Source: Candidatus Beckwithbacteria bacterium CG10_big_fil_rev_8_21_14_0_10_34_10
GTDB lineage: Bacteria > Patescibacteriota > Microgenomatia > UBA1400
Direction of reading: 5' to 3'
DNA length: 64,000 bases
Assembly (NCBI GenBank): GCA_002773945.1
Contig: PEZT01000016.1
Location: 11,655 to 75,654 of the forward strand
Shown: piece by piece, positions 18,940 through 64,000 of the stretch
Position numbering within the stretch: the stretch's first letter is position 1
Layout of the letters: every line of letters starts with the position of its first letter
Notes under the pieces: generated by a model
Told to the model about the DNA's origin: nothing
The model's input: only the letters and a program-made list of their open reading frames with translations
Databases searched by the model: none
Translations under genes and position numbers: made by a program

Positions 18940-21081
18940 TTAGAAGTTAAATTCAATTTCTTTGTCTTCTCTCAGTTCAAATTCTTCTTCTTGATCCCCA
19001 AATATGACTTGGTACTGATGACCTTCCGTCCCTGGTTGTTTTTGAATCAAAAGCTTGTAGTTATCACCGGAAGTTAGATTAAATGGCAGTTTATACTTTA
19101 AAACTAATTTGGCTCTGCCTCCGCCTCCCCTAACAGTGAAAAAACCATCAAAATATGTTTTTCCTAAATCAGTCTTAGTTTCCATCTCCACTTCTGAACC
19201 TAGGCTTTCAATTAACTTAGACCCTTCGGGTACATAAATTCTTATATAATTTCTTAAAATACTGTTTAAACAAAGGCCTTCTTTTCTCTCTAGGTTACAA
19301 TTATCAGTTGGCTCAGGATTTTCATAAGTTAAAGTTAAAGTCTTTATTATTTCACCCGACTCATTAATCTCAATTTCCTGTTCTACTTTATGATTGGTAA
19401 AAAGATTGGATTTAGCCCCCCCAAAATTTGAATCATTTATATGAAGGTAGTCCCACTCATAAGGCTTAATCCTGCCGGCTGCTCCATAAGATTGGGCCGC
19501 TTCCTCTAAGTAGGAATCCGAAAAATATAGTAAGACATGTTTTTCTTTTAAAAGCCTTAGACCTGTAGAAAACAAATCTGGCCAAAGCTGCTTGGGACTA
19601 CCCATGGCTTTAAACATAATTTGTTGCATCATTGGGCCTAAAATAGTTTGTTTTCGATTACCTGCTTGAGTCGGTAAAGGCTGATCAACAATGTATTCTA
19701 ATTCACAAATAACATTGGCTACTCCATGACACCTTTGATCTTCTTCAGTGGTAAATTTGCCGTATCCTGGCACATCAATTGGTCCTAAAATATCAATTAA
19801 GTCCTTTAAAACATAAGTATCAACCGTAATAATCCCATCCACTTCTTCTTCGCCCGGAACTTTGTCATAGTATTTTATAAAAGTGTCCATCGAGACTTTA
19901 AAGTCAGGGGATAAATTCATGTCCCGAAGGTAAAAATAAGGAACAATCCCCGTATCTAAATCACTACTAAATAGATATTTCTCGATTGACTCTGGGGCTT
20001 CAATCCTGGGTTTATATTTCTTATCTAAGGAATAAATATCATCACTTTTTAAAGACCTGACTTTACCAGAATCAAATTCTAGCACTGAAAAAGCCGTCAT
20101 AAAACCACCAGTCGCTCTTAGCTCACCGTCATTTTGAAAGATAACTAAATACTTTTTCTTATCTGGATAACCTAGTATTTCCGGTAAGACACTTAAGATG
20201 GGTTTAGCTTCAGAAATGCCTTTAGATGTTTCTGCTAAAGTCTTTTTAGCTATAATTATATTTTCTCTAATTTTCTTACCTCTAAATTCTTCTGGATAAC
20301 GTTTAGGGTTAATTTTTGAAAGTTCTTCTTGAGCCGCCTCAAGTTTATCGGCCATGGCATCAATTTCCGAGGTAACTTTCTCTAAAGTTTGAACGATTTT
20401 AACAATTCTGTCTTCAGCTGTCCCTCCCATAAAACTACCTTGACCTGTAAATCCTAAAACATCAGCATAGGGAGTAATCGCGGCTACCATTACTTCACCA
20501 GCCTGAATGCCAGATAATCCGGCTTTTAAAAGACTCTGGCCATCTTCATAATAACTGCTAACAAAGGGAATAATTTTTAAATAAGCCAGGCGGCTATACT
20601 TTTTTTCCGTTTCTTTTAAAGATTCTTCAGTTTGGCTGATTTTTTCCTCTGCTAATACTAAATCCTGATTTTTACCTGCTTGATAGGCTTCTTGGGCTAA
20701 AAGATAAGTCTTCTTAGCTGAAGAAATAAGAGGTTTAGCTAAAATTAAAGTCGGGACAGCTAAAAGAAGAAAAAAACCTAAAATAACTAAAAGGGGAATA
20801 AAAAGGGCCTTTTTTTTAAGCTGAGGGAGTTTAAATCGGGGCAGCTTTAATTTAAATTTCTTTTTAGAAGAAGTGGAAAAGGAGGCCTTTTCAATGTTAG
20901 TTTCAATCTTCTCCTTTTTTAAATCAGAAGGAAAAAGAGTTTCTTTGTTTCCAGAAGTTTTCTCTTTCCCAATATTTTTATCTTCTTTCTTCTCAATTTC
21001 CTTATCTTCAGTTCCTTTTCTAGCTTCTGTTTTTTCTTGGCTTTTATCTTTAATAGTGATTTTTTTAAGTCCAATTACCAT
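18940..21081 (-). CDS. large exported protein with an N-terminal charged tail and a single TM; DUF4012-like by size and topology, though I cannot verify the family here
   Basis: K/E-rich 90-aa N-terminus, then TM LFIPLLVILGFFLLLAVPTLILA and an about 600-aa extracytoplasmic domain (…NDGELRATGGFMTAFSVLEFDSGK…); lies adjacent to the initiating sugar transferase. Confidence 0.45.
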   Translation of the reverse strand: MVIGLKKITIKDKSQEKTEARKGTEDKEIEKKEDKNIGKEKTSGNKETLFPSDLKKEKIETNIEKASFSTSSKKKFKLKLPRFKLPQLKKKALFIPLLVILGFFLLLAVPTLILAKPLISSAKKTYLLAQEAYQAGKNQDLVLAEEKISQTEESLKETEKKYSRLAYLKIIPFVSSYYEDGQSLLKAGLSGIQAGEVMVAAITPYADVLGFTGQGSFMGGTAEDRIVKIVQTLEKVTSEIDAMADKLEAAQEELSKINPKRYPEEFRGKKIRENIIIAKKTLAETSKGISEAKPILSVLPEILGYPDKKKYLVIFQNDGELRATGGFMTAFSVLEFDSGKVRSLKSDDIYSLDKKYKPRIEAPESIEKYLFSSDLDTGIVPYFYLRDMNLSPDFKVSMDTFIKYYDKVPGEEEVDGIITVDTYVLKDLIDILGPIDVPGYGKFTTEEDQRCHGVANVICELEYIVDQPLPTQAGNRKQTILGPMMQQIMFKAMGSPKQLWPDLFSTGLRLLKEKHVLLYFSDSYLEEAAQSYGAAGRIKPYEWDYLHINDSNFGGAKSNLFTNHKVEQEIEINESGEIIKTLTLTYENPEPTDNCNLERKEGLCLNSILRNYIRIYVPEGSKLIESLGSEVEMETKTDLGKTYFDGFFTVRGGGGRAKLVLKYKLPFNLTSGDNYKLLIQKQPGTEGHQYQVIFGDQEEEFELREDKEIEFNF

Positions 21082-21689
21082 TTACTAACCATGGCTTCTG
21101 GAGTTTTTAAAATAATATTTAAATCCCCCCAGAAGGACAGGCCTTTAGAATAATCATAATCCATTTTAGCTCTTTTGACAAAAGGAATTTCATTTCTACC
21201 TGAGGTTTGCCAGACACCAGTTACACCAGGCTTAACCAACATTATACTTCTAATCCATTTTTTAGTCTGAGGATATTTTTTGGTTTGTTCTTTTATTTCC
21301 TGCTTTACATAAGCTCGCGGTCCAACTAAACTCATCTCTCCTCTTAAAACATTAAAAAGCTGAGGAAATTCATCAATGGTTAAGTTTCTTAAAATCCGGC
21401 CTAACTTGGTAATCCGAGGATCATTTTTCAATTTCCAATCTCCATTTTTAAACTCAGCTAAAAGCCTTTTGTTGTGAAGAAGGATTTTGTCAGCATTTGT
21501 AACCATAGTTCTGAATTTGTAGAGCCAGAATTCTTTTCCATTCATTCCTATCCTCCGATGACGGTAAAAAATTGGGGTTCCAGATTCAAAATAAATTAAA
21601 AGGGGAGTAATAATCCAAACCGGTAAAAATAAAACCGCTAAAAAGATAGCAAAAACAATATCAATTACTCTTTTAATATCTTGATACAT
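21075..21689 (-). CDS. small (PglC-type) polyprenyl-phosphate hexose-1-phosphate transferase (bacterial sugar transferase)
   Basis: Re-entrant N-terminal helix, then ...DEFPQLFNVLRGEMSLVGPRA...GVTGVWQTSGRNEI; the hallmark monotopic phosphoglycosyltransferase (PGT) motifs. Confidence 0.85.
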   Translation of the reverse strand: MYQDIKRVIDIVFAIFLAVLFLPVWIITPLLIYFESGTPIFYRHRRIGMNGKEFWLYKFRTMVTNADKILLHNKRLLAEFKNGDWKLKNDPRITKLGRILRNLTIDEFPQLFNVLRGEMSLVGPRAYVKQEIKEQTKKYPQTKKWIRSIMLVKPGVTGVWQTSGRNEIPFVKRAKMDYDYSKGLSFWGDLNIILKTPEAMVSKW

Positions 21690-21692
21690 TAT

Positions 21693-22781
21693 TTATTTTT
21701 CAAAAAGTTTTTTATAAAGCTTTTTAACTAATGGGGCTTTATTCATTGAACAAACAAGTAAACCCTGAGGCGTATCAACCACTATTACCCCAGACAATCC
21801 AATAATTCCGGCTACCTTATCATCTCTTGAAAAAACCAAAGAATCTTTAGTTTCCATTAACTCAGTTTTGCCAAAAGAAACATTTCCTGCTTTATCTTTT
21901 GGTAAACCATGATAAATTAGTTCCCAGGTGCCTAAATCAACCCAACCAATATTAACTGGCAGCTCCAATTGACTCCCGGGTTCTAGTTTTTCAAACAAAC
22001 CAAAGTCAACTGAGTTTTTTTCAATTTTATGATATTCTTCTTTCAATACCCTCTCATAATCCTTTGTTCCCATGGCTTTTGAAATTTTTTCAATATGTTT
22101 AAAACAATCAGGCGCATGTTTTCGATATTTTTCTAAAAGAAGGTTTGGTTTACAAACCATATACCCAGAATGAATTAAGTAAGAACCAGACTTAAAGAAT
22201 TTTTCCGCTGTCTTAAGATCGGGTTTTTCTACTTGTTTAATAAACTCATAAGTTTCAAAACCATCTTCTTCCTTTATTTTTTTTCCAATTTTAATCCAGC
22301 CATTATGAACTGATGGATAAGTAGGCTTCATATCAATATGAACAATAACATCATCTTCTCTAGCCAGTTGAGAAGCTTTTTTTAAAGCTTTTATAAAAGC
22401 CTCTTCTTTTTGAACTAAATGATCGGCTCCCCAAAGGATTACCATCACCGAATCTGGAAAGTGATAATTAATATAAGCCGCTGATAAAGCCACGGCGCCC
22501 AAAGTATCTCTCATTTCAGGCTCTAAGATTACATTTCTAAAAGGAATTTCAGGAGCTTGCTTAGCAATAGTTTTTTTAAACTGACTGCCCGTGGAAATAA
22601 AAATATCCTTGCTTGAAAAACCCTTTAAAACCCTTTTTATGGCTGCCCTAAAAAAAGAAGTCTGACCCAAAACAGGATCAAATTGTTTAGGATGTCCGAC
22701 TTTACTAATTGGCCACATTCTTGTCCCTCGACCACCGCAAAAAAGAACTATTTTGACATTCTGCTCTGATAACTTAGCCAT
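21693..22781 (-). CDS. manC: mannose-1-phosphate guanylyltransferase-like nucleotidyltransferase
   Basis: VLFCGGRGTRMWPISKVGHPKQF, comparable to ManC [22 protein letters not shown]; 362 aa with no obvious C-terminal cupin domain. Confidence 0.7.
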   Translation of the reverse strand: MAKLSEQNVKIVLFCGGRGTRMWPISKVGHPKQFDPVLGQTSFFRAAIKRVLKGFSSKDIFISTGSQFKKTIAKQAPEIPFRNVILEPEMRDTLGAVALSAAYINYHFPDSVMVILWGADHLVQKEEAFIKALKKASQLAREDDVIVHIDMKPTYPSVHNGWIKIGKKIKEEDGFETYEFIKQVEKPDLKTAEKFFKSGSYLIHSGYMVCKPNLLLEKYRKHAPDCFKHIEKISKAMGTKDYERVLKEEYHKIEKNSVDFGLFEKLEPGSQLELPVNIGWVDLGTWELIYHGLPKDKAGNVSFGKTELMETKDSLVFSRDDKVAGIIGLSGVIVVDTPQGLLVCSMNKAPLVKKLYKKLFEK

Positions 22782-23893
22782 TCTCCCTCCACATATTTTT
22801 TAAATTTTTCCTTAAAAATCTTTTCATTATACTTTAAAGCATTATTACGACTTTCTTTAGGATCAAATCTTTTGTTTCCAAATTCTTTAGCTGCTTTAAT
22901 TAAATCAGATTTTTTCTGTTTGGAAAATAGGATGCCTGTCTTTCCCCTAATAACAGTTTCTCCCATTCCCCCTTTTTCAAAGGCAATTATTGGCTTGCCG
23001 CAGGCCTGAGCTTCAATCCCCACCAAACCTAAATCCTCTTCTCCGGCAAACACAAAGGCCAAACATTTTTGATAATAACCTATTAAATCCTTGTCAGTCA
23101 AATCTTTGCTTAAAAATTCAATGTTTGGCTTAGCCATTCTTTTTAATTTGTTTTTTTCTTTCCCGTCGCCAATTATCTTTAAAGGTAAAGCTAGATCATT
23201 AAAAGCTTTAATAATTAAATCTATTCTTTTATAAGAAACTAGACGGGAGACAGTCAAAAAATATGGCTTATTTTTTTTTCCGTTTTTCTCATCATCCTCT
23301 TCTTTTAAGGGTATAAACTTATTAATATTAACCGGTGGATAAATTACATCTGAATCCCTTTGATAATGTTTTTTAATTCTTTTTTGAACGGTTTTGGAAA
23401 TAGCCAGATACAGATCCGGTCTTTGGCTGGCTATTTTATCCCAGGTTTTAAGTTTTCTTAAAACTGGTTTGATTATTAATTTAGCTAAAGGGTTTAACCA
23501 GCCAAACTGAAGATTATTAGAATAATGCTTAAAGCCATTCCATAAATATCGTGTCGGGGTTAAACAATAATTAAGGTGGAAAGTTGAGGGAGAAGTAATT
23601 ATTCCTTTTGCTTCAGCTGAGGAAACACTAATAACCACATCAAAGCCGGAAAAATCAAAGCTCTCAAAAGCAAAGGGCATTAAAAAAGGGTAAAGCTCAT
23701 GATGTTTTTTAGCTAAAGGAATTTTTTGAACAAAAGAAGAAATAACTTTAAAGCATGAAGCCCAAGGGGCGCCCATAGGATCATAAACAGAAGTATATAA
23801 AGGAGCATCAGGCCAGATTTTGTGGAGGGCTAATAAAACTCTTTCTGCCCCTCCAAATTTATTTACTCGATCGTAAACTAAAGCAACTTTCAT
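22748..23893 (-). CDS. glycosyltransferase family 4 (GT-B)
   Basis: EDLGLVGIEAQACGKPIIAFEKGGMGETV, the E-x7-E type GT4 C-terminal motif. Confidence 0.75.
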   Translation of the reverse strand: MKVALVYDRVNKFGGAERVLLALHKIWPDAPLYTSVYDPMGAPWASCFKVISSFVQKIPLAKKHHELYPFLMPFAFESFDFSGFDVVISVSSAEAKGIITSPSTFHLNYCLTPTRYLWNGFKHYSNNLQFGWLNPLAKLIIKPVLRKLKTWDKIASQRPDLYLAISKTVQKRIKKHYQRDSDVIYPPVNINKFIPLKEEDDEKNGKKNKPYFLTVSRLVSYKRIDLIIKAFNDLALPLKIIGDGKEKNKLKRMAKPNIEFLSKDLTDKDLIGYYQKCLAFVFAGEEDLGLVGIEAQACGKPIIAFEKGGMGETVIRGKTGILFSKQKKSDLIKAAKEFGNKRFDPKESRNNALKYNEKIFKEKFKKYVEGEWLSYQSRMSK

Positions 23894-24290
23894 TTATATA
23901 TTTTTCAATTATTTCTTTATGATTAAAGGCTAATTTTTTTATGCTTTTCAACTTATCTAAAGTAAACCATTTATATTCTATAGAATATGGCGGATTAACC
24001 TCAATCTCTTTCTCACTTACCCTACCAACAAAAACAACTACTTCCTTAGTTTTCTGATCACCTTTTATAGGTAAGGAAAAAAGGTGTTTTCCTTTAAAAG
24101 ATTCTGTTTGTAAATCACAATTAACTTCTTCTATTACTCCCTTTTGTGGTTTAATTCCTTTTTTTGACTCGCCGATGCCACTAATTAAGGCCCAATAATT
24201 AACAAAAGGCTTTCTCCCTCTTTTAATAAGAAGAACTTTGCCCCTATCATTAATTATGATGGCACAAACAATCTTGTGTTTCTTTGTCAC
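23859..24290 (-). CDS. Nudix-like hydrolase, plausibly a GDP-mannose mannosyl hydrolase (Gmm/WcaH-like) given the adjacent ManC
   Basis: IVCAIIINDRGKVLLIKRGRKPFVNYWALISGIGESKKG...IEEV; a degenerate Nudix box; 143 aa. Confidence 0.45.
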   Translation of the reverse strand: MTKKHKIVCAIIINDRGKVLLIKRGRKPFVNYWALISGIGESKKGIKPQKGVIEEVNCDLQTESFKGKHLFSLPIKGDQKTKEVVVFVGRVSEKEIEVNPPYSIEYKWFTLDKLKSIKKLAFNHKEIIEKYINESCFSLRSSK

Positions 24291-24304
24291 TTCTTATGAT
24301 AACC

Positions 24305-25426
24305 TTAGAAATAAGCTTCCAAGGTTTTCCGGGCACACTTTTGCCAAGAATATTTTTTTACTTGATTCTTTCCTTTATTAACTAAAAATTGTTTTTCTTT
24401 TGAGGACAGCTTTAAAAAAGATATTATTTTATTCTTTATATCATCAACATTTTGAGGATCAAAATAAATGGCTCCATTTCCATAAACTTCCTTAAAAACC
24501 GGAATAGAACTGACTAATATTGGACACTGACTAGCCATGGCTTCTAAACCGGGTAAACCAAACCCCTCCATTAAAGAAGGATTTATAAAAGCCTCTGCTT
24601 GACTATATAAAACCTTTAAATCTTTATCAGTCACAAATCCAACCATCCTAACAAAATCTTGAGCCTTGAATTGACTGATTAATTTTTCAATCCGCTTTAA
24701 AAACACATCTCTAGAGCTCACAATGACTAAATTAAGCTTTTTATGGTTATTAACTGCTTTTATGGCTAAAATTAATCTCCTTACATTTTTATGAGGGTAA
24801 ACATTCCCGGTGTACAGAAAGTAAGGCTTTTTTATCTCATACTTTTCAATAACTTTTGGATCACTAGCCTTGCCCTCTTTTAAAAACCCTTGATCAACTC
24901 CCTCATAAATAACTTTAATTTTATTCTCATTAACCTGGTAAAATTTTAGGATTTCTTTTTTAACTGCCTTGGATGGAACAATAATCTTTCTGGATTTTAA
25001 AACACTATTCCTAAATATTTGCTTATAAGCTAAATACTTTAAAAAATATGTTAATGGAGATTTGGTGGTTGTTTCTAAACCCCTAGAGTAATGTTTAATT
25101 AAATCATGAATTGTGACTACAAATGGATATTTATCAAAATAAGGAACATTAAAGTGGGGAAAGTGAACTAAATCAGGCTTAATTTTACTTAATAGCTTGG
25201 GGATTTCAATTTGTTCTTTTAAAGAATAATGCTTAGCTGAAGAAAATACTAGTTTAATATTTTTAAACTCATTTAAAATGTTTTTATTGGTATTTTCTTG
25301 GGAAAAAATTAAATAAAATTCGCTTTTTTTATCTTGTTTTAAAATACTTTCAACAAGATTTTGAGTGTACCGGCCAAGGCCAGTATGCTTTACTCCCCAA
25401 AACCGGCAATCAATAACAATTTTCAT
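24305..25426 (-). CDS. glycosyltransferase family 4
   Basis: FINPSLMEGFGLPGLEAMASQCPILVSSIPVFKEV. Confidence 0.75.
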   Translation of the reverse strand: MKIVIDCRFWGVKHTGLGRYTQNLVESILKQDKKSEFYLIFSQENTNKNILNEFKNIKLVFSSAKHYSLKEQIEIPKLLSKIKPDLVHFPHFNVPYFDKYPFVVTIHDLIKHYSRGLETTTKSPLTYFLKYLAYKQIFRNSVLKSRKIIVPSKAVKKEILKFYQVNENKIKVIYEGVDQGFLKEGKASDPKVIEKYEIKKPYFLYTGNVYPHKNVRRLILAIKAVNNHKKLNLVIVSSRDVFLKRIEKLISQFKAQDFVRMVGFVTDKDLKVLYSQAEAFINPSLMEGFGLPGLEAMASQCPILVSSIPVFKEVYGNGAIYFDPQNVDDIKNKIISFLKLSSKEKQFLVNKGKNQVKKYSWQKCARKTLEAYF

Positions 25427-25429
25427 TTA

Positions 25430-26317
25430 TTAATCCTTAAATCGACTAATTAAATATATCCCCAGCAACACCAATGACCGAATTAACTTAGGATACTTAT
25501 TTTTATAATGTTTATCATAAAATAATTTCATAGTTTCAAAAAAATACTGATTGCTTTTTTGCTTAGTTACAAGGTCTTTTTGAGTAATTTCTGTACCCTT
25601 GTCTTTTCTTCGTCCAGATGATTTTTTAAAATGAATAATTTTAGTATTCGGATTATATCCTATTTTATACCCTGATTCTTTGATTCTATATGCTAAATCA
25701 ATGTCTTCAGCATACATAAAAAATTGTTCATCCAAAAGGCCAACTTTATCTAAAACTTCCTTTTTAATCATAAAGAAAGCACCGGAAATAGCATCAACTG
25801 AATGAACTTTGTCCAAGTTTTTCCAAGTTTGATGATATTGCCCAAATATTTTTGATTTAGGAAAAATCTTTTCCAGGCCGCTAAAATATGTTAGAGCCGC
25901 CCATGGCGTAGGAAAACCTCGATGACAGGCTGGATCAAGTTGCCCATTAATAAGTTCTATTTTGCATGTCCCTGCAACATACTTATTATATTTCATAAAA
26001 TGAAGCATATTTTTTAAAGTATTTTTTTTAAGAAGAGTGTCAGAGTTTAATAGAAGAATATATTTACCCCTAGAAATCCTTATTCCTTGATTATTAGCTT
26101 TGCTAAAACCTAAATTTTCTTTATTAAAAATATATTTAATATTGCAAAATGATTTTTTGAACATTGTTTGGCTACCGTCTTTTGAACCATTATCAATCAC
26201 TGTTAACTCCACTTTAAATTTCCCTAGGTCTGACTCTAAAAAAGATTTTATTAGGTTGCTTACTAAATCCTTGGTATTGTAGTTAACAATTATTATTGAT
26301 AAGTCGATGGCTTTCAT
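25430..26317 (-). CDS. glycosyltransferase family 2 (GT-A)
   Basis: LSIIIVNYNTKDL...VIDNGSKDGS...NLGFSKANNQGI...LLNSDT. Confidence 0.75.
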   Translation of the reverse strand: MKAIDLSIIIVNYNTKDLVSNLIKSFLESDLGKFKVELTVIDNGSKDGSQTMFKKSFCNIKYIFNKENLGFSKANNQGIRISRGKYILLLNSDTLLKKNTLKNMLHFMKYNKYVAGTCKIELINGQLDPACHRGFPTPWAALTYFSGLEKIFPKSKIFGQYHQTWKNLDKVHSVDAISGAFFMIKKEVLDKVGLLDEQFFMYAEDIDLAYRIKESGYKIGYNPNTKIIHFKKSSGRRKDKGTEITQKDLVTKQKSNQYFFETMKLFYDKHYKNKYPKLIRSLVLLGIYLISRFKD

Positions 26318-26347
26318 TTTTTTTCTATTTTTGTTTGATTAATTAAA

Positions 26348-31549: not shown

Positions 31550-31553
31550 TTTT

Positions 31554-32147: not shown

Positions 32148-32152
32148 AATTT

Positions 32153-34630: not shown

Positions 34631-34638
34631 TTATCTAA

Positions 34639-36880: not shown

Positions 36881-36890
36881 TTAGATATTA

Positions 36891-36906
36891 AAAATATTAA
36901 TATTTT
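36891..36906. repeat. 16-bp perfect palindrome in the 38-bp spacer upstream of the GT2 gene at 36880
   Basis: AAAATATTAATATTTT read directly; all A/T. Confidence 0.3.
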
Positions 36907-36918
36907 ATTCCATCTAGA

Positions 36919-54557: not shown

Positions 54558-54562
54558 CTACG

Positions 54563-55390: not shown

Positions 55391-55391
55391 A

Positions 55392-57864: not shown

Positions 57865-57873
57865 AATAAATCA

Positions 57874-58812
57874 TCATTTTCTCGATACTTTAACAATTTG
57901 ATAAAAAGGGACTATTTTCCCTCCATAACTTAATTTATAACCGCCACGTTTAGGACTATTAATACCTAGCATATCCAATTCCTTAAGTCCTAAAGTTTTG
58001 TTTAGATAAACGCAGGCATCATAAAAATTTTTTGTTCCCACTCCCAATTTTTTCAAGCTTGGGTCTGTCCCGGCAAAAAGATGATATGCCCTAAATCGAT
58101 CATAAACAAAAAAACTGGCCATGGCTGGTTTCTTATTAGCTTCTGTGACTAAAAGTTTTCCTGCTTTAGCTCGGAGTAAATTTTTACAAATATTCATAAA
58201 AATTCTTGTTTGTTCTTTTGTTCTTTTAACTCCTTGCCTTTTTAAAGTTGCTTCATTAAAAGAACTTAACAACGCTATATCATTAGACTCTTTAGTCAAA
58301 AAGCGAATATCATTATTTTTATTTAAATCTCGGGTTCTTAACCTAGCATAACCTGAAGTATTCCCGGCTTTTGAAATATCCAAAAGACTGGTATAACGAA
58401 TAGAAATTTTATAATAACCTTTTTCTCTTTGATGATAATTAATCCAGTCAAAGGGACGCATATCAACAATATCCCAATGATTATTAAATTCAACTTTTTG
58501 ATAATGAGAAAATAAATATTTTCCAAAACACTCCAAAGCATTAAAAACAATTAGATTGCGGCGATAATTTCTCAAATTAGATAAATCTTTAAAGATAATA
58601 CCCCTGTAGGCCTGATAAGGCATTAATTTAATTCTTTTTGAAGATTCAGTAAAGGCAAACCCGGCAATAGTTTCTTCTCCCTGGAAACATCTTAAATATT
58701 TTACAGGCTGATTATAACTTTTGAGATAAAAGCTTTTACAAAAAACTGTTCCTTGAGGTGATACATTAACAAAAGTGTCCCAGCTATCTTTATCCCATTT
58801 ATTTATTTTCAT
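57874..58812 (-). CDS. GNAT-fold acyltransferase of the FemAB / Acetyltransf_6 type
   Basis: 312 aa; ...FFVYDRFRAYHLFAGTDPSLKKLGVGTKNFYDAC...; placed next to sugar aminotransferases. Confidence 0.35.
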   Translation of the reverse strand: MKINKWDKDSWDTFVNVSPQGTVFCKSFYLKSYNQPVKYLRCFQGEETIAGFAFTESSKRIKLMPYQAYRGIIFKDLSNLRNYRRNLIVFNALECFGKYLFSHYQKVEFNNHWDIVDMRPFDWINYHQREKGYYKISIRYTSLLDISKAGNTSGYARLRTRDLNKNNDIRFLTKESNDIALLSSFNEATLKRQGVKRTKEQTRIFMNICKNLLRAKAGKLLVTEANKKPAMASFFVYDRFRAYHLFAGTDPSLKKLGVGTKNFYDACVYLNKTLGLKELDMLGINSPKRGGYKLSYGGKIVPFYQIVKVSRK

Positions 58813-59804
58813 TATTTATCTCCATTTATTTCTTTCAACAATTCTTTTCGAGAATTTATTCTTTTTATCTCTTTCTGGGGAAAAGAAAATACTTGTTTAT
58901 TAGTAGGAATATAAGATATCACTTTTTTCCCCACAATAAAAGCAATAAACAATGCCATACTACTAGAACCAATTACAATATCTGCCCATATACAATCCTG
59001 AACAAGTAAATTCCTGGCTGGATTGGAAATAGATACAAGCTTTCTAATCCTTTTATATCTTTCACTCTTCAACATTTCAGAGTATTTATTTATTTTTTCA
59101 GCTGGATGCAGTCTAATTTTAAGTTCTAATAGAATTCCCATCGATCGTGATTTAATAATTTTTAATAAATCTTTAATCACTTCATATTCCGTATAACCAA
59201 AATAGTGAGAATTTCTATACTTTTTTAACGCAGATTGGAAGATTGGCTCGGATATATATAAAATTCTCATCTTTTTATTTTGATGTTGTTTTTTGTTATT
59301 CTGCTCCACTTTTTTAGCTTGTTCGAGGCTCTCTTCAAAATAAGGATTTTTTATCTGAAGTATAATTTTTTTAGGAAATCCATTTTTTAAAGCAATTCTA
59401 TAGGCCCATCTGTCACCCACAAATATATAATCTGGTAAGTTCATTTTCCAATCTCCTGGATAGCCAAATCTTTCTCTATAATTAATCCAATGGTCAAGAA
59501 AACAAGCTGTTTTAATATTATTTTTCTTTGCTGATTTTATAAAATCAATTTCTAAACTAGATCCACCACCTGACCCAGTTAAAACTAAATCAGGTTGAAA
59601 TAATTTTAAAATTTTTTCAATCCTGTGATTTTTTAAATGTAGTGCCTCTGCATATATACTTATTTTTTTCTCTAAAAATATCTTTTTCGCCGGACCTGCT
59701 AAATATAGCAACCATTTAAAATCTCCTTTATTTTTTTTTACCAAAGAAGCAAGAATATTAGCGCCACCAGCATCATGAGAGACAACTAAAATCTTCTTTT
59801 TCAC
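58812..59804 (-). CDS. hypothetical protein (possible Rossmann-like sugar-modifying enzyme)
   Basis: KILVVSHDAGGANILASL...LVLTGSGGGSSLEIDF; 330 aa; no confident family assignment. Confidence 0.3.
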   Translation of the reverse strand: MKKKILVVSHDAGGANILASLVKKNKGDFKWLLYLAGPAKKIFLEKKISIYAEALHLKNHRIEKILKLFQPDLVLTGSGGGSSLEIDFIKSAKKNNIKTACFLDHWINYRERFGYPGDWKMNLPDYIFVGDRWAYRIALKNGFPKKIILQIKNPYFEESLEQAKKVEQNNKKQHQNKKMRILYISEPIFQSALKKYRNSHYFGYTEYEVIKDLLKIIKSRSMGILLELKIRLHPAEKINKYSEMLKSERYKRIRKLVSISNPARNLLVQDCIWADIVIGSSSMALFIAFIVGKKVISYIPTNKQVFSFPQKEIKRINSRKELLKEINGDK

Positions 59805-61105
59805 TTTATTGTTTTCCGTAGCTTATATACTTTTTCAAAAGCTTTTATTACATCGTCAAGATCTTTCTTTTCCATTGAGGCATGGATTAAATCAAGTTGA
59901 AATAGCTGTTTATTGTTCAAGTCTTCCGCTACTGGACAAATCCCTTTTTTATAATTTGGTTTTCCCTTATACCATGGACATTTAAAAGGACAGCCTTTTT
60001 TACCATATGCAATCATTTTTTGATAAATTGGTTGCAAATAAAGAGGCTTACCGCCACGAGCAGCAATCAATATCCCCTCTCTTTCCCGGCCTTTGGTAGG
60101 AGCCAATTCTGCCTTAACAGCATTAATAAATTTATTACGTGAAATACCAACTATATTCTCATCATATTTAAAACATTGAATATAGTAAACATTGGAACAT
60201 CCTCTTCTTAAAGCCGGTGGTATAATTCCAGGTAGTGATTTTAATTTTTCGGCAATATAATTTGCGTTAGACGTTCGTTTCTTTAATAAATTTTTTAATT
60301 TTAGCAATTGGCATCTGGCTATTGCTGCCTCAATTTCTGTCATTCTAAAATTAAAACCAATCATATTAACTAGATTATTAACTCCCATTTTTCCTACCAC
60401 TGCTTCAGCGTGATTACGGATTAATCTTATTCTTTCAGCCAATTTATCATTGCTTGTCACTACCATGCCGCCTTCACCTGTATGAATATGTTTATGATAA
60501 TTCAAGGAAAATACACCAATATCTCCTAAGGTACCCGCATATTCCTCTCTATAAGTAGCCCCAATCGCCTGGGCACAATCTTCTATAATATAAAGGTTGT
60601 GTTTTTTGGCTAAGGCATTTATTTTCTCTCTATCATAAGGCTGCCCATAAATATCAACAACAAGGATTGCCTTAGTATATTTTGTAATTCTTTTTTCTAC
60701 TGATTTTGGATCAAGACAGAAATAATCTTCTTCAATATCAGCAAAAACAGGGATGGCATTAAAAACTAAAATGCTGGTTGCTGAAGCAGACATCGTACAG
60801 GGAGAAACTATAACTTCGTCGCCTGGCCCAATTCCACAAGCCCCTACAGCACAATAAAGCCCTGAAGTGCAGGAATTAACCGAAATTGCATGTTTAACTT
60901 TAAAATATCTTGCCCATTCTTTTTCTACTGCCTTAATTTGCGGCCCACCATAAAAACCAGGATCCCAAGAACCTAAGAATTTTGACAAGATTCCTGATTT
61001 TAAAACTTTTTCTACTGCCTTTATCTCTTTGCTATTAATCACCTTATAGGCCGGGAAAGGCTTGTTCCTTATCTTTGACCCACCGTTAATTGCCAACTTC
61101 TCCAT
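59801..61105 (-). CDS. DegT/DnrJ/EryC1/StrS-family PLP-dependent sugar aminotransferase (long, StsC-like subtype)
   Basis: INGGSKIRNKPFP...GSWDPGFYGGPQIKAVEKEWARYF...AISVNSCTSGL...VFSLNYHKHIHTGEGGMVVT (PLP lysine region); 434 aa. Confidence 0.8.
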   Translation of the reverse strand: MEKLAINGGSKIRNKPFPAYKVINSKEIKAVEKVLKSGILSKFLGSWDPGFYGGPQIKAVEKEWARYFKVKHAISVNSCTSGLYCAVGACGIGPGDEVIVSPCTMSASATSILVFNAIPVFADIEEDYFCLDPKSVEKRITKYTKAILVVDIYGQPYDREKINALAKKHNLYIIEDCAQAIGATYREEYAGTLGDIGVFSLNYHKHIHTGEGGMVVTSNDKLAERIRLIRNHAEAVVGKMGVNNLVNMIGFNFRMTEIEAAIARCQLLKLKNLLKKRTSNANYIAEKLKSLPGIIPPALRRGCSNVYYIQCFKYDENIVGISRNKFINAVKAELAPTKGREREGILIAARGGKPLYLQPIYQKMIAYGKKGCPFKCPWYKGKPNYKKGICPVAEDLNNKQLFQLDLIHASMEKKDLDDVIKAFEKVYKLRKTIK

Positions 61106-61111
61106 ATTTAA

Positions 61112-61858
61112 TTATCCTTCCTCAGTTTTTTTATGCCTAACTTTCTGGTTAATCTTGAGAAATTTTGGATTTTTTAAAAGAAATTCTACTACCTTTTTAG
61201 CTGAAAAAAAAGGATCTTTAGGAAGTAGATTCTTAAAAAGAATATTAATTAATTTATAATCATTTATTTCATCTAAAGTAACCCTCAAGTTAGGCCAATA
61301 CATTTTACCTTTAGCTTTAATGTTTTTTATTTTAAATTCTTCAGGATGTCTATAAATATAATAAGTGCTATGCACCCTTTCAATAGGATCATTAGCAAGC
61401 TTATCAATCTTTTCTAAAACCTCTAAGGAAAGCACTTGTACATCAAAGCCATCCGGATAAGACCTTTCAAGCGCATTAGAAATATAATTATATTTACCTT
61501 CTAAAAATACTTCTATCGCCTCGTCAATATGTCTAAAATCGATTAAGGGGCAATCTCCTGTCAGGACGACCACTATTTTAGCCCTAGAAGCCTTAGCCGC
61601 TTCTAAAATTCTTCTCAAAACATCATTTTCACTGCCTCGATAAAATTTAATTTTATAACTTTTACAAAAATCAACTATTTTATTGTCTTTCTTGTTAATA
61701 GTAGTGGCAACTATAATCTCATTAATATATTTGCTTTTCTTAATTCTATCAATCATTCTTTTTAAGGCAGGCTCACCGGCTAAAGACATAAGAACCTTGC
61801 CAGGCAACCGACTAGAACCCATTCTTGCTTCAATAGTACAAACTATTTTTTTATTCAT
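61112..61858 (-). CDS. acylneuraminate cytidylyltransferase-family protein (SpsF/PseF-like CMP-sugar synthetase)
   Basis: KIVCTIEARMGSSRLPGKVL...VVLTGDCPLID...YPDGFDVQV. Confidence 0.75.
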   Translation of the reverse strand: MNKKIVCTIEARMGSSRLPGKVLMSLAGEPALKRMIDRIKKSKYINEIIVATTINKKDNKIVDFCKSYKIKFYRGSENDVLRRILEAAKASRAKIVVVLTGDCPLIDFRHIDEAIEVFLEGKYNYISNALERSYPDGFDVQVLSLEVLEKIDKLANDPIERVHSTYYIYRHPEEFKIKNIKAKGKMYWPNLRVTLDEINDYKLINILFKNLLPKDPFFSAKKVVEFLLKNPKFLKINQKVRHKKTEEG

Positions 61859-62835
61859 TTAGCTTCTTTTATCAACTTCATACATATTTCTTGAGTTTTT
61901 AAAGCATTTTCTCCACAAGATAATAATTTTTCTTTTTTTTCAACATGACCAATAATATTATCTATTAATTTTAATAGTCCTTCATTAATATTAGTTTGTT
62001 TTATTACTCGCTCGCCTAAATCCTTATAGTCAGAAAAAATAGGATCTTGACGAACAGCTTGCAGACTGTATTGCAACCCAAACTGATAGATATTAATTCT
62101 TATCTTGCTAAATAATAAATCCATTTCCCCAATACTATACTCTTTTGCATTTCCCGCAATAAGATGAACTTTTATATTGTTTTTAAACTTTAGAAAAATA
62201 TCTAAAGTAGGATCAGTTTTTTTATAATCAATAGTTTTTGCAAGAATTTTATATGATATAACCTCCCCAAAAAAATATCTTAACAAATCGATTACATGTG
62301 ATCCATTATTTAAAATTCCCTTAGTGTAAATTACTGATGTGTTGATAAAACTACCATACCTCCCATTATCAATATTATATTTTATTTTTTGAATGGTGCT
62401 ATCAAACCTTCGGTTAAAATTTACTGTTAAAGAAATCTTGTTTTTTTTATATTCCATCAGTACTTTTTTAGCCAGTCGGCTATCATTACTTAGTGGCTTC
62501 TCGCAAATGACTGCTTTTGGTTTATAATCCAAAACTACTTTTAATACTTTGACATGTGTTTCTGTAGGCGTACAAATATAAACAAGGTCAGGTTTTATTT
62601 GAGAAAACATCTCTTTTAATCCAATAAAAGGAACTGTTTTCCACTTACGAGCAAATGTCACTGCTTTTTTATAAAAAAGATCATAAACTCCAACAAGATC
62701 AGTTTTTTTATGAATACTAATAGCATGAGCGTGAGTTAAAACATTCTTATCTTGAAGCGAATCATACCCACCAGCTATATTACCGCAACCTATAATTACT
62801 GCTTTATATTTATGATTATTTTCCGTAACTTTCAT
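61855..62835 (-). CDS. Gfo/Idh/MocA-family NAD(P)-dependent oxidoreductase
   Basis: KAVIIGCGNIAGGY...VYICTPTETHVKVL...AVICEKPLS. Confidence 0.75.
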   Translation of the reverse strand: MKVTENNHKYKAVIIGCGNIAGGYDSLQDKNVLTHAHAISIHKKTDLVGVYDLFYKKAVTFARKWKTVPFIGLKEMFSQIKPDLVYICTPTETHVKVLKVVLDYKPKAVICEKPLSNDSRLAKKVLMEYKKNKISLTVNFNRRFDSTIQKIKYNIDNGRYGSFINTSVIYTKGILNNGSHVIDLLRYFFGEVISYKILAKTIDYKKTDPTLDIFLKFKNNIKVHLIAGNAKEYSIGEMDLLFSKIRINIYQFGLQYSLQAVRQDPIFSDYKDLGERVIKQTNINEGLLKLIDNIIGHVEKKEKLLSCGENALKTQEICMKLIKEAK

Positions 62836-62837
62836 TT

Positions 62838-64000
62838 TTATGCTAATCTTTTAAACCCAGCGTGGCAAACAGAACCTTTTAAATGCTTTTCTGGATTACC
62901 TTCTTTTACAGCTTTAGCTATAAAAGCAAATACTTCATCTAACGCTTCTAAGTATTTTTTAACGTGCTTTTTTTTATGGGCATAGGAAGCATAAAAACTT
63001 GTGCTAGCCAGGAACCCTTTTTCTAGCATTAATTGAGTAAAAATAGTTTTTAGAACCAGTTGTTTTTTGTGTTTGAAAGAAAAATGTCCAATGGCATTAG
63101 TGCCAGAAACATTTATTTTAAGTCCATGTTTTTGAGCTGTTGATTGCCAGCCCTTTTTTATTTGCCCACCAATATTCTGCAAATAACTATAAACATGATA
63201 GCACTTTGATTTTCTGATGGTGGCTAGGCTGGCTACTAATCCAATTCTTTCAGTCCAAGAAGTGCTACTAATAAAAGTATCTTGGGCAATTTGCATTATT
63301 TTTCTCTTGCCAATAATTACCCCCATAGAATAACCATTACTTATGGCTTTGGCAAAAACAGCTATATCAGGCTCCATCTCTAGCTGAAGATGGGCTCCTC
63401 CCTCATTAAGCCTAAAACCCATACTCACTTCATCAATAATCAAAACAATACCAAGCTTTTTAGTTATTTCAACAATGGTGTCAATAAATTCTCTTTCAGG
63501 TTGATTATGTCTTAACGGCTCCATAATCACTGCCCCAATTTTATCTCTGTGTTTTTTGATTAGCCACAAAAATTGCTTAGTTTTATTAAATTTAAAAGGA
63601 TAAGATGTTCTTTTTAAGACTCGAGGAACGCCTAGTGGATTAAGTCCAGGCAGTAAATGACCATCTAAAGCTTTTTTATCAGCCAGATTAGATGATAAAT
63701 ACCAATCATGCCAACCATGATAACCACAAAACAAAATCACATCTTTTTTTGTCCTGGCTCGGGCAATTCTAATTGCTACGGCCACTGCTTCTCCCCCTGT
63801 CCGAGTATAGCGAACCATTTGCGCCCAAGGGTGAATCTTAATCAACAATTTTGCTAATTCCACTTCTTCAGGTGCATTTAAAATACTTATATTTCCTTTA
63901 TCAACTGCATTTTTTACTGCCCGATCAACATCTGAATCGGCATATCCTAAAATACAAGCCCCTACAGACATCTGACCCATATCAATATATTTTTTATCAT
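62838..64000 (-). CDS. class III (GSA-aminomutase-like) PLP aminotransferase; the N-terminus lies beyond the window end
   Basis: ...ILGYADSDVDRAV...FCGYHGWHDWYL...IIDEVSMGFRL...; the frame stays open upstream of the listed Met (…DKKYIDMGQM…) to position 64000. Confidence 0.7.
   Translation of the reverse strand, partial: DKKYIDMGQMSVGACILGYADSDVDRAVKNAVDKGNISILNAPEEVELAKLLIKIHPWAQMVRYTRTGGEAVAVAIRIARARTKKDVILFCGYHGWHDWYLSSNLADKKALDGHLLPGLNPLGVPRVLKRTSYPFKFNKTKQFLWLIKKHRDKIGAVIMEPLRHNQPEREFIDTIVEITKKLGIVLIIDEVSMGFRLNEGGAHLQLEMEPDIAVFAKAISNGYSMGVIIGKRKIMQIAQDTFISSTSWTERIGLVASLATIRKSKCYHVYSYLQNIGGQIKKGWQSTAQKHGLKINVSGTNAIGHFSFKHKKQLVLKTIFTQLMLEKGFLASTSFYASYAHKKKHVKKYLEALDEVFAFIAKAVKEGNPEKHLKGSVCHAGFKRLA

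What the first reader, a model, noticed from the sequence alone, without database searches (positions are those of the whole stretch)
21075..64000. A glycan-assembly super-locus of more than 43 kb with an unusual density of GT-C membrane glycosyltransferases
The locus starts at the PglC-type initiating transferase and runs past the window end. Every gene in it is glycan-related. It contains about 8 GT4, about 5 GT2, a Wzx flippase and a Wzy_C/O-antigen-ligase-family protein. It also contains about 8 polytopic proteins with GT-C hallmarks in the first extracytoplasmic loop (SLWLDEAFSF at 34639; EDEDL...HPPLGKY at 44299; HPPGPVLF at 42971; PDEEQHF at 41315; YSMDQG at 37959; WRQADTA at 27596). 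Sugar-nucleotide enzymes (ManC plus Nudix, UXS, a 4-epimerase, LbH acetyltransferase, two methyltransferases) are also present. PMT/ArnT-like GT-Cs and Wzy_C/PglL-like proteins are the enzymes that transfer sugars onto proteins or lipids outside the membrane. Eight paralogues in one locus suggests an elaborate, possibly protein-linked (S-layer or pilin-type O-glycosylation) or lipoglycan surface structure assembled stepwise on the outer face of the membrane. Strand switches at 37906-37958, 39203, 42890-42970 and 50146-50162 suggest modular accretion.
Basis: partly seen in the sequence, partly recalled or inferred. Interest (0 to 1): 0.65.

Follow-up and report, generated by a model that had tools for sequence, protein, structure and literature searches.

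The report
Giant surface-glycan locus, eight GT-C enzymes
A tiny-genome CPR bacterium (Candidatus Beckwithbacteria) carries a gene region of more than 53 kb for building cell-surface sugars, including eight membrane glycosyltransferases that work outside the cell membrane; clusters of these enzymes turn out to be typical of its whole lineage, not special to this locus.

Summary
Window 21075-64000 holds 39 ORFs. They include one PglC-type initiating transferase, 8 GT4, 5 GT2, one Wzx and one Wzy_C protein. They also include ManC, Nudix, a UXS orthologue, a 4-epimerase, an LbH acyltransferase and two methyltransferases.

All eight proposed polytopic proteins are GT-C. Four are shown by Pfam, two by profile-profile comparison, and two by AlphaFold models whose PDB fold matches are only GT-C enzymes.

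The organism is a public CPR MAG, Candidatus Beckwithbacteria CG10. The locus runs at least 10 kb past the window into a pseudaminic/legionaminic-type nonulosonic-acid module.

GT-C density is not peculiar to this locus: 42 full-length 21-kb loci from related Microgenomates-group genomes hold a median of 6.5 GT-C genes, and up to 11. Composition gives no clear sign of foreign origin. The 22.7-47.3 kb core is collinear with two other CPR genomes.

The best reading is a lineage-typical, undecaprenyl-phosphate-based Wzx/Wzy_C glycan pathway with extensive elaboration by GT-C enzymes outside the membrane. The donor-making enzymes and the final acceptor (protein, peptidoglycan or lipid) are unresolved. 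I rate it a new variant of a known kind, of moderate interest.

The parts
18940..21081 (-). DUF4012 protein, 713 aa, one N-terminal TM helix and a large extracytoplasmic part. Possible last gene of the locus.
   Evidence: Pfam DUF4012 E 2.5e-24. One TM at residues 97-115. Its start overlaps the end of the PglC gene by 7 nt. Membership is inferred from that overlap only.
21075..21689 (-). PglC-type small monotopic polyprenyl-phosphate phosphoglycosyl transferase (the initiating enzyme).
   Evidence: Bac_transf E 1.7e-61. NCBIfam EPS_sugtrans/WbaP C-terminal domain, E 6e-73. 204 aa with one N-terminal hydrophobic helix.
21693..24290 (-). ManC-type mannose-1-P guanylyltransferase (21693-22781), GT4 (22748-23893) and Nudix hydrolase (23859-24290).
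   Evidence: Pfam NTP_transferase plus ManC beta-helix, Glycos_transf_1, NUDIX.
24305..27568 (-). GT4 (24305-25426), GT2 (25430-26317), GT4 (26348-27568).
   Evidence: Pfam. Collinear homologues in L005 at 39-50% identity.
27596..29035 (-). GT-C number 1, PMT_2 family, 479 aa, WRQAD motif in the first outer loop.
   Evidence: PMT_2 E 7e-20, PMT E 7e-14. Its homologue is fused to the Wzy_C homologue in L005.
29032..30663 (-). Wzy_C-family polytopic protein (polymerase, ligase or O-oligosaccharyltransferase; subtype undetermined). Overlaps GT-C 1 by 4 nt.
   Evidence: Wzy_C E 3.9e-9, above the gathering score. About 11 TM segments. No PDB sequence match. L005 7467-10556 is a Wzy_C plus PMT_2 fusion.
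30638..34630 (-). GT2 (30638-31549), LbH acyltransferase (31554-32147), GT4 (32358-33506), GT4 (33506-34630).
   Evidence: Pfam. Collinear in L005.
34639..36054 (-). GT-C number 2, PMT_2 family, 471 aa, LWLDEAF motif.
   Evidence: PMT_2 E 5e-15. NCBIfam mannosyltransferase MT1671-like, E 1e-11.
36047..37905 (-). Soluble GT2 (36047-36880; its end overlaps the start of GT-C 2 by 8 nt) and GT4 (36919-37905).
   Evidence: Pfam. Weak similarity to PgfS, ArnC and DPMS among many generic GT2 hits. No TM helices.
37959..39206 (+). GT-C number 3, PMT_2/GT87-like, 415 aa. A single-gene indel relative to UBA1400.
   Evidence: PMT_2 E 1.3e-10. NCBIfam LA_3751/LA_3752 family, E 4e-9. Absent between the flanking homologues in L002.
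39203..41315 (-). GT2 (39203-40051) and Wzx-type MOP flippase (40023-41315).
   Evidence: Glycos_transf_2 E 1e-16. Polysacc_synt E 1.4e-22, 12 TM.
41315..42889 (-). GT-C number 4, DUF2142/PMT-like, 524 aa, PDEEQHF motif.
   Evidence: DUF2142 E 1e-22, PMT E 1.9e-6. hhalign 99% against PMT_2 profiles.
42971..44278 (+). GT-C number 5 (A), 435 aa, rare family with invariant D108 and LHTRTHPPGPV.
   Evidence: No Pfam hit. hhalign 93-95% against PMT_2-type profiles. jackhmmer E 5.6e-17. Four-sequence alignment. No structure model was made.
44299..45429 (+). GT-C number 6 (B), short PMT-like protein, 376 aa, invariant D61 and HPPLGK.
   Evidence: Homologues hit PMT_2/PMT and are named GT39. Profile hits yeast Pmt2, E 2.3e-4. 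hhalign 97-98%. Invariant residues.
45426..47316 (+). UDP-glucuronate decarboxylase (UXS, 45426-46388) and WbgU/WbpP-type 4-epimerase (46360-47316).
   Evidence: PDB sequence matches: UXS1 E 7e-94; epimerases E 1e-75 to 1e-57.
47327..49012 (+). GT-C number 7 (C), 561 aa, a family with no Pfam model. PPEPDD motif at the start of the first outer-loop helix; small C-terminal outer domain.
   Evidence: 132 distant homologues, and none of 65 scanned hits a membrane Pfam family. D40 invariant and D39 nearly so. AF2 pLDDT 91.4. Foldseek top 30 are all GT-C: STT3, ALG12, ALG9, PglB, AftA, Emb.
49053..51285 (.). Two convergent GT4 genes: 49053-50162 (+) and 50146-51285 (-).
   Evidence: Pfam.
51285..51812 (-). 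175-aa single-TM protein of unknown function, a conserved partner of GT-C D.
   Evidence: No significant family. 42% identical to the protein in the same position in Beckwithbacteria RBG_13_42_9.
51823..53709 (-). GT-C number 8 (D), 628 aa, DUF6311 family, with a C-terminal alpha/beta outer domain and an invariant GYGGGxGxGxxVAD loop motif.
   Evidence: Homologues carry PF19830/DUF6311. AF2 pLDDT 86.7, pTM 0.89. Foldseek top 33 are all GT-C: STT3, DPY19, PglB, AglB, AftA, AftD, Pmt4. Invariant residues.
53709..56300 (-). Two methyltransferases (53709-54557 Methyltransf_23; 54563-55390 TylF-type O-methyltransferase) and a GT2 (55392-56300).
   Evidence: Pfam. The GT2 resembles rhamnosyl/GlfT-type enzymes.
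56308..59804 (-). Unknown 518-aa protein (56308-57864), FemAB-like Acetyltransf_6 (57874-58812), and a 330-aa protein weakly like the BFO_1060 family of glycosyltransferases (58812-59804).
   Evidence: Pfam and NCBIfam. No PDB match for the 518-aa protein.
59801..64000 (-). Start of the amino-sugar / CMP-sugar module: DegT aminotransferase, CTP_transf_3 cytidylyltransferase, GFO/IDH/MocA oxidoreductase, and Aminotran_3 (cut by the window end; the real product is 436 aa).
   Evidence: Pfam. The same contig in other assemblies continues with CTP_transf_3, AKR, WbqC, GNAT, PIG-L, Hexapep, NeuB, ATP-grasp, a PseG-like protein, DegT and a PseB-like protein (L082).

Best explanation
This is the main cell-surface glycan biosynthesis region of a CPR bacterium (Candidatus Beckwithbacteria). 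It is at least 53 kb long and sits next to the cell-wall (dcw/Mur) genes.

Proposed mechanism:
1. A PglC-type transferase puts the first sugar phosphate on undecaprenyl phosphate at the inner face of the membrane.
2. Up to 13 soluble GT4 and GT2 enzymes extend the chain. The nucleotide sugars are made in the locus: GDP-mannose, UDP-xylose and 4-epimerised products, amino, acetylated and O-methylated sugars, and a CMP-activated pseudaminic/legionaminic-type nonulosonic acid.
3. The single Wzx flips the lipid-linked glycan to the outer face.
4. The Wzy_C protein polymerises it or transfers it to its final acceptor.
5. Eight divergent GT-C enzymes add further sugars outside the membrane from polyprenyl-phosphate-sugar donors.

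What is shown: the family or fold of each enzyme, the gene order, the conservation in relatives and the fusions. What is inferred from how these families work elsewhere: the order of steps, the donors, one product versus several, and the final acceptor.

The multiplicity of GT-C genes is a trait of the Microgenomates group as a whole.
For: - Family assignments for 36 of 39 ORFs.
- GT-C status of all eight membrane proteins, with a conserved first-loop acidic residue.
- Organism identified from 100%-identical database entries.
- The locus continues into a NeuB-containing nonulosonic-acid module.
- Collinearity with UBA1400 (L002; 34639-47316, 39-75% aa identity) and L005 (22748-36880, 28-57%).
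- A comparable region of at least 53 kb in Beckwithbacteria RBG_13_42_9.
- Functional coupling is suggested by a Wzy_C-GT-C fusion in L005, by GT2-GT-C fusions in L032, L057 and L066, and by overlapping gene pairs in the window (29032/27596, 36047/34639).
- GT-C arrays are the norm in 80 related loci. Pfam spot checks gave 15 of 20 ORFs hitting only GT-C clan families.
Against: - No GtrB/DPMS/ArnC-type GT2 with C-terminal TM helices and no GtrA-type flippase in the window, so the donor supply for eight GT-C enzymes is unexplained.
- No chain-length regulator, LCP ligase or candidate acceptor protein in the window.
- One initiating transferase and one Wzx for 13 + 8 transferases is more than a typical repeat unit needs, so more than one glycan may be made.
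- The L005 fusion is a single case and could be a frameshift in a MAG.
- A was not modelled structurally.
- D is linked to the other GT-Cs by fold, and only weakly by sequence (hhalign 49% or less).
Confidence: 0.6

Rival explanations
1. A glycan island: several independent pathways that are only co-located. Candidate blocks are a Wzx/Wzy_C unit (21-41 kb), a pentose/GT-C unit (41-54 kb) and a nonulosonic-acid unit (54 to beyond 74 kb). Each would feed a different surface molecule.
For: - 21 transferases for one PGT and one Wzx.
- Strand switches delimit a + strand block A-B-UXS-epimerase-C-GT4.
- C, D and the distal module are not found within 10 kb of B homologues in other genomes.
- The content of the sister genome's region differs: dTDP-sugar enzymes, many methyltransferases, a radical SAM enzyme.
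Against: - The 22.7-47.3 kb stretch, which spans the proposed first boundary, is collinear in two other genomes.
- Genes are tightly packed with many overlaps, and only one intergenic gap in the locus exceeds 100 nt.
- No second initiating enzyme or flippase is present in the window or in the next 10 kb.
Confidence: 0.3
2. A general protein O-glycosylation system. The Wzy_C protein would be a PglL-type O-oligosaccharyltransferase that moves the finished lipid-linked glycan onto pilins or S-layer proteins, and the PMT-like GT-Cs would glycosylate Ser/Thr directly or extend protein-bound glycans.
For: - PglC + GTs + Wzx + Wzy_C is the architecture of Neisseria-type pgl loci (my own knowledge).
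- A Pse/Leg-type module is typical of glycans on surface proteins such as the Tannerella S-layer (my own knowledge). Weak BFO_1060-family hit, E 2e-7.
- PMT/PMT_2 family hits.
Against: - No S/T-rich, pilin or S-layer gene in the 64-kb window.
- No MIR domain in any PMT-like protein.
- The Wzy_C subtype cannot be told from sequence, and there is no PDB sequence match.
- PMT_2 is a broad family that includes lipid- and glycan-directed enzymes such as ArnT (my own knowledge).
Confidence: 0.2
3. A lipoglycan or wall polysaccharide built mainly outside the membrane, in the manner of mycobacterial lipomannan/lipoarabinomannan and arabinogalactan. Each GT-C would add a defined mannose or pentose linkage from a polyprenyl-phosphate sugar.
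For: - ManC plus Nudix and UXS plus epimerase supply mannose and pentose.
- Fold matches include AftA, AftD, EmbA-C, ALG9/12 and PIG-M.
- GT87 and MT1671-like weak hits.
- Arrays of many GT-Cs in relatives.
Against: - No recognisable polyprenyl-phosphate-mannose or -pentose synthase in the window.
- The presence of Wzx and Wzy_C points to block assembly on undecaprenyl diphosphate.
- No lipid anchor pathway is evident.
Confidence: 0.2

Closest known systems
Wzx/Wzy-dependent O-antigen, capsule and pgl-type loci (PglC/WbaP initiating transferase, cytoplasmic GTs, Wzx, Wzy/WaaL/PglL)
   Same: PglC-type PGT, 13 GT-A/GT-B enzymes, one MOP flippase, one Wzy_C protein and in-locus nucleotide-sugar genes.
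   Different: Eight GT-C enzymes are interspersed. No chain-length regulator or export genes. At least 53 kb is far larger than usual. The host is a CPR bacterium with peptidoglycan genes; that it has no outer membrane is my assumption.
Mycobacterial/corynebacterial LM/LAM and arabinogalactan GT-C enzymes (PimE, MptA-C, EmbA-C, AftA-D)
   Same: Many divergent GT-C enzymes in one organism, presumed to work in sequence outside the membrane. Fold matches to AftA, AftD and Emb.
   Different: Here they are clustered with a Wzx/Wzy_C pathway. There is no sequence-level orthology. No Ppm1/DprE-type donor genes were seen in the window.
Three-component extracytoplasmic glycosylation (GtrA/GtrB/GtrC; CsbB/GtcA/YfhO; ArnC/ArnT; S. 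mutans PgfS/PgfM1/PgfM2)
   Same: GT2 genes lie next to GT-C genes (36047/34639). GT2-GT-C fusions and GtrB-like GT2s with C-terminal TM helices occur in related loci. YfhO and PTPS_related family members occur in related arrays.
   Different: The window has no GtrB-type membrane-anchored GT2 and no GtrA-type flippase. There are eight GT-Cs instead of one or two.
Protein O-mannosyltransferases (GT39: eukaryotic PMT/POMT, actinobacterial Pmt)
   Same: PMT/PMT_2 Pfam hits. DE-type first-loop motif and HPPLGK motif in B. Profile hit to yeast Pmt2.
   Different: No MIR domain. The proteins are much shorter (376-524 aa). There are eight copies rather than one. The acceptor is unknown.
Oligosaccharyltransferases STT3/PglB/AglB
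   Same: They are the best fold matches for C and D, including a C-terminal outer domain.
   Different: No WWDYG-type motif in any of the nine polytopic proteins. TM-scores are only 0.4-0.55. The match is at the level of fold class, not family.

Membership tests
GT-C glycosyltransferase superfamily | Polytopic membrane protein (about 8-13 TM helices) with the GT-C fold | tested here: met
   Six to twelve hydrophobic segments by a crude hydropathy scan. AF2 models of C and D match only GT-C structures at the top of the PDB ranking. The other six are linked by Pfam or profile comparison. A and the four Pfam-positive proteins were not modelled.
GT-C glycosyltransferase superfamily | Conserved acidic residue(s) in the first extracytoplasmic loop | tested here: met
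   - C: D40 invariant and D39 nearly so, across 65 sequences.
- B: D61 invariant.
- A: D108 invariant, but in only 4 sequences.
- D: E51 nearly invariant.
- Motifs WRQAD, LDEAF, MDQG and PDEEQ in the other four.
A catalytic role is inferred, not tested.
GT-C glycosyltransferase superfamily | Uses a polyprenyl-phosphate-linked sugar donor | not testable with these tools
   No donor-synthesis gene of the GtrB/DPMS/ArnC type was recognised in the window.
GT39 protein O-mannosyltransferase (PMT) | PMT/PMT_2 transmembrane domain | tested here: met
   27596, 34639 and 37959 score above the PMT_2 gathering score. 41315 scores above the PMT gathering score (28.1 against 22.7 bits). B is linked through homologues and a Pmt2 profile hit.
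GT39 protein O-mannosyltransferase (PMT) | Luminal/extracytoplasmic MIR domain and protein Ser/Thr acceptor | tested here: not met
   No MIR domain hit in any protein. Acceptor specificity cannot be tested. They should not be filed as true PMTs.
STT3/PglB/AglB oligosaccharyltransferase | WWDYG-type motif in the C-terminal outer domain | tested here: not met
   A regex search found no WW[DE] or W[WYF]D[YFW]G in any of the nine polytopic proteins.
Wzx/Wzy-dependent glycan pathway | Initiating polyprenyl-phosphate phosphoglycosyl transferase plus MOP-family flippase | tested here: met
   Bac_transf E 1.7e-61. Polysacc_synt E 1.4e-22.
Wzx/Wzy-dependent glycan pathway | Wzy polymerase and chain-length regulator (Wzz/PCP) | tested here: inconclusive
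   A Wzy_C-domain protein is present, but polymerase, ligase and O-OTase cannot be told apart. No Wzz/PCP family hit in the window.
Gtr-type three-component glycosylation | GtrB-like GT2 with C-terminal TM helices and GtrA-like small flippase next to the GT-C | tested here: not met
   The window GT2s have no or one weak C-terminal hydrophobic segment. No small ORF (70-200 aa) with 3 or more TM segments was found. GtrB-like GT2s and GT2-GT-C fusions do occur in related loci.
Pseudaminic/legionaminic acid (nonulosonic acid) biosynthesis cluster | NeuB-family synthase, CMP-sugar synthetase, PseB/PseC-type dehydratase and aminotransferase, N-acetyltransferase | tested here: met
   All are found by precomputed Pfam on the continuation of the same contig (L082). 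In the window itself only DegT, CTP_transf_3, GFO/IDH/MocA and Aminotran_3 are seen. Which nonulosonic acid is made was not determined.

The most novel reading that the evidence does not exclude
Microgenomates-group CPR bacteria, with genomes that I recall as about 1 Mb, may build their surface coat mainly outside the membrane. They would use arrays of up to 11 divergent GT-C enzymes, including at least one family with no Pfam model (C) and DUF6311 (D). Some of these enzymes would be physically coupled to a Wzy_C polymerase/ligase (fusion in L005) and to GT2 donor synthases (fusions in L032, L057, L066). That would be a LAM-like or combinatorial glycan-diversification machinery that has not been described for this radiation, and it could be central to attachment to host cells.
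Probability: 0.25. Interest if true: 0.7.

Novelty: new variant of a known kind. Interest (0 to 1): 0.45.

Why it matters
CPR/Patescibacteria are a large, mostly uncultured part of bacterial diversity, and they live attached to other cells. What their surface is made of is largely unknown.

This locus, together with the GT-C arrays found in 80 related loci, shows that these reduced genomes invest heavily in sugar chemistry outside the membrane.

The work gives concrete handles:
- Two uncharacterised membrane-protein families (a Pfam-less family with a PPEPDD motif, and DUF6311) can now be annotated as GT-C fold enzymes.
- Gene fusions point to partners (Wzy_C with GT-C; GT2 with GT-C).
- A nonulosonic-acid module predicts a detectable sugar.

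None of the eight full-text searches I ran found a paper describing GT-C arrays in this radiation. That library lacks most subscription journals.

Tried and rejected
- Single-sequence Pfam (E up to 10) and NCBIfam scans of A, B, C and D gave nothing usable.
- hhalign of A as a single sequence against the B profile failed (4.5%). It succeeded only after homologues were collected.
- D stays weak by sequence against every PMT-type profile (49% or less) and rests on the fold match.
- The idea that C or D is an oligosaccharyltransferase was rejected because there is no WWDYG motif.
- A GtrB/DPMS-type role for the locus GT2s was not supported. PDB and NCBIfam hits are generic, with chondroitin synthase, GalT1 and rhamnosyl/GlfT types ahead of DPMS, ArnC and GtrB.
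- PDB sequence searches of the Wzy_C protein and the 518-aa unknown found nothing.
- Promoter and terminator scans were no better than shuffles (77 against 73.3; 17 against 14.4), so operon boundaries could not be set.
- Rfam found nothing in the window, and there are no tRNAs.
- Composition does not separate the modules.
- The exact-match look-up of the last ORF failed because that ORF is cut by the window end.
- A metagenome scan for A found only three relatives.
- Eight literature searches found no description of GT-C arrays in CPR. Two Patescibacteria papers were checked and do not discuss surface glycans.

Full report
**What is there.** Window 21075-64000 holds 39 ORFs. Most are on the minus strand and tightly packed, with many overlaps.

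Pfam, NCBIfam and PDB sequence searches assign 36 of them to glycan-related families:
- A 204-aa PglC-type phosphoglycosyl transferase.
- Eight GT4 and five GT2 enzymes.
- One Wzx-type flippase and one Wzy_C-domain protein.
- ManC and a Nudix hydrolase.
- A full-length orthologue of UDP-glucuronate decarboxylase (E 7e-94 to human UXS1).
- A WbgU/WbpP-type 4-epimerase, an LbH acyltransferase and two methyltransferases.
- At the far end, DegT, a CMP-sugar synthetase-type cytidylyltransferase, a GFO/IDH/MocA oxidoreductase and a class-III aminotransferase.

The 17 ORFs upstream are dcw/Mur cell-wall genes, GlyRS and RecO, so the lower boundary is real. The one qualification is the DUF4012 gene at 18940-21081. 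It overlaps the PglC gene by 7 nt and may belong to the locus.

**Are the eight membrane proteins GT-C?** Yes.
- Four hit GT-C clan Pfam families directly: 27596, 34639 and 37959 hit PMT_2, and 41315 hits DUF2142 plus PMT.
- B (44299) has no Pfam hit itself. Its close homologues hit PMT_2/PMT and are named GT39. Its profile finds yeast Pmt2 in the PDB, and hhalign gives 97-98% against PMT_2 profiles.
- A (42971) belongs to a rare family; I found four sequences. It reaches 93-95% hhalign probability against PMT_2-type profiles and E 5.6e-17 in an iterated search.
- C (47327) and D (51823) were modelled with AlphaFold2 from alignments (pLDDT 91.4 and 86.7). In Foldseek searches of the PDB, the top 30 and top 33 matches respectively are all GT-C enzymes: STT3, PglB, AglB, ALG9/12, DPY19, AftA, AftD, Emb, Pmt4 and PIG-M. 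Unrelated transporters appear only at E above 0.4.

C belongs to a family of at least 132 representatives. None of the 65 scanned hits any membrane Pfam family. D belongs to DUF6311.

The iterated PMT_2 profiles do not pick up the Wzx or Wzy_C proteins, so the signal is not generic hydrophobicity.

Each family keeps an acidic residue in the first outer loop. None has the WWDYG motif of oligosaccharyltransferases. None has a MIR domain.

**Whose genome, and how far does the locus go?** Two proteins are 100% identical to entries of Candidatus Beckwithbacteria bacterium CG10_big_fil_rev_8_21 (locus tags COT75_02910 and COT75_02945, on a 169-kb contig). This is a public CPR/Patescibacteria MAG.

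The same sequence in other assemblies shows that the locus continues at least 10 kb beyond the window. The continuation holds a second cytidylyltransferase, an aldo-keto reductase, WbqC, GNAT, PIG-L, Hexapep, NeuB, an ATP-grasp enzyme, a PseG-like protein, DegT and a PseB-like dehydratase. That is a pseudaminic/legionaminic-type nonulosonic-acid module. The region is therefore at least 53 kb. The last window ORF is cut by the window end.

**Is the GT-C density unusual?** It is unusual compared with most bacteria, as far as I know. It is not unusual within this lineage.

A scan of one genome per species with the B-family alignment returned 80 loci, essentially all from Microgenomates-group CPR genomes. 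An iterated search over their ORFs gave these figures for the 42 loci of full 21-kb length:
- A median of 6.5 GT-C-like ORFs per locus (250 aa or more, E at most 1e-10).
- A median of 49% of the DNA covered by them.
- A maximum of 11 per locus.

Over all 80 loci the density is 3.1 per 10 kb, or 2.5 without the anchor gene, against 1.9 per 10 kb in the window locus.

Pfam spot checks of 20 such ORFs gave 15 hits. All were to GT-C clan families (PMT_2, PMT, PTPS_related, YfhO, GT87) and none to any other membrane family.

What is less common is the combination with a PGT, Wzx and Wzy_C. These neighbours were found in only a few close relatives.

**Mosaic or conserved?**
- L005 is collinear with window 22748-36880 (12 ORFs, 28-57% identity).
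- L002 (UBA1400) is collinear with 34639-47316 (39-75% identity). This includes the divergent junction at 42890-42970 and the + strand block A-B-UXS-epimerase.
- So those strand switches are old features.
- Only 37959, which is absent from L002, and an extra B-like gene in L005 behave as single-gene indels.
- Mean GC of locus genes (0.313) and housekeeping genes (0.337) differ by less than one standard deviation.
- The sister genome RBG_13_42_9 has a comparable region of at least 53 kb with different sugar-modifying genes. It has the same trio of D, a small single-TM protein (42% identical) and a GT4.
- The eight GT-Cs are not recent duplicates, because BLASTP detects almost no similarity among them.

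**How it probably works.** The shown parts are enzyme families, gene order, conservation and fusions. The sequence of events is inferred from how these families act elsewhere (see the best explanation for the full step list):
- Initiation on undecaprenyl phosphate by PglC.
- Cytoplasmic extension by GT4/GT2 enzymes using locus-encoded nucleotide sugars.
- Flipping by Wzx.
- Polymerisation or transfer by the Wzy_C protein.
- Further glycosylation outside the membrane by the GT-C enzymes, from polyprenyl-phosphate sugars.

Three observations support coupling:
- The Wzy_C gene and GT-C 27596 overlap by 4 nt, and their homologues are one 1029-aa protein in L005.
- GT2 36047 overlaps GT-C 34639.
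- GT2-GT-C fusion proteins occur in L032, L057 and L066.

**What remains open.**
- The window has no membrane-anchored GtrB/DPMS/ArnC-type GT2 and no GtrA-like flippase, so the donor supply is unexplained.
- It has no LCP ligase, chain-length regulator or Ser/Thr-rich protein.
- The Wzy_C subtype cannot be determined.
- Whether the product is protein-linked, wall-linked or a lipoglycan therefore cannot be decided.
- With 21 transferases for one initiating enzyme, more than one glycan is possible.

**Verdict.** The parts are known kinds of enzymes in a known logic. The arrangement is not one I could find described: a Wzx/Wzy_C pathway interleaved with eight GT-Cs and joined to a nonulosonic-acid module, in a CPR genome, within a lineage that keeps large GT-C arrays. 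I rate it a new variant of a known kind, of moderate interest.

Noticed in passing
L005 7467-10556 (homologues of window 29032-30663 and 27596-29035): A single 1029-aa ORF fuses a Wzy_C protein (residues 1-508, E 3e-151) to a PMT_2 GT-C (residues 544-1009, E 8e-109). The same two genes overlap by 4 nt in the window. This is either a true fusion or a frameshift in the MAG.
   Followed up: partly
L032 5782-7935; L057 6724-9006; L066 6625-8907: Proteins of 717-760 aa with an N-terminal GT2 domain and a C-terminal GT-C domain of 8-10 TM helices. This suggests that a donor synthase and a GT-C transferase work together in this lineage.
   Followed up: partly
L006, L010, L041, L077 and other loci: Tandem arrays of up to 11 divergent GT-C genes within 19-21 kb in Microgenomates-group genomes. 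About half of the DNA of these loci is GT-C coding sequence.
   Followed up: partly
Record titles of L005-L008, L010, L012, L014 and others: Many TPA MAG records titled 'uncultured Gammaproteobacteria' or 'Pseudomonadales' carry CPR-like GT-C arrays, and L005 is collinear with this Beckwithbacteria window. The record taxonomy is probably wrong.
   Followed up: no
window 51285-51812 with 51823-53709 and 50146-51285: A 175-aa single-TM protein with no family sits between the DUF6311 GT-C and a GT4. The same trio occurs in Beckwithbacteria RBG_13_42_9 (L088), where the small protein is 42% identical.
   Followed up: partly
window 6424-8721 (-): A 765-aa protein joins a complete MurC-type Mur ligase to MurB (FAD_binding_4 plus MurB_C) in one reading frame.
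   Followed up: no
window 4557-5106: A 550-nt gap lies between murA and glmS, upstream of glmS. It holds only two small ORFs (67 and 53 aa) and has no Rfam match, so no recognisable glmS ribozyme.
   Followed up: partly
window 18940-21081 (-): A DUF4012 protein (713 aa, one TM helix, large outer domain) overlaps the PglC gene by 7 nt. It is a possible uncharacterised component of glycan export, attachment or length control.
   Followed up: no
window 62838-64000 (-): The last ORF is cut by the window end. On other assemblies of the same contig the Aminotran_3 product is 436 aa, not 380 aa.
   Followed up: yes
window 47327-49012 (+) and alignment A2: The C family (132 representatives at 50% clustering) has no Pfam model. 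It shares PPEPDD and GxGxYHGFxWxxP motifs and could be defined as a new GT-C family.
   Followed up: partly
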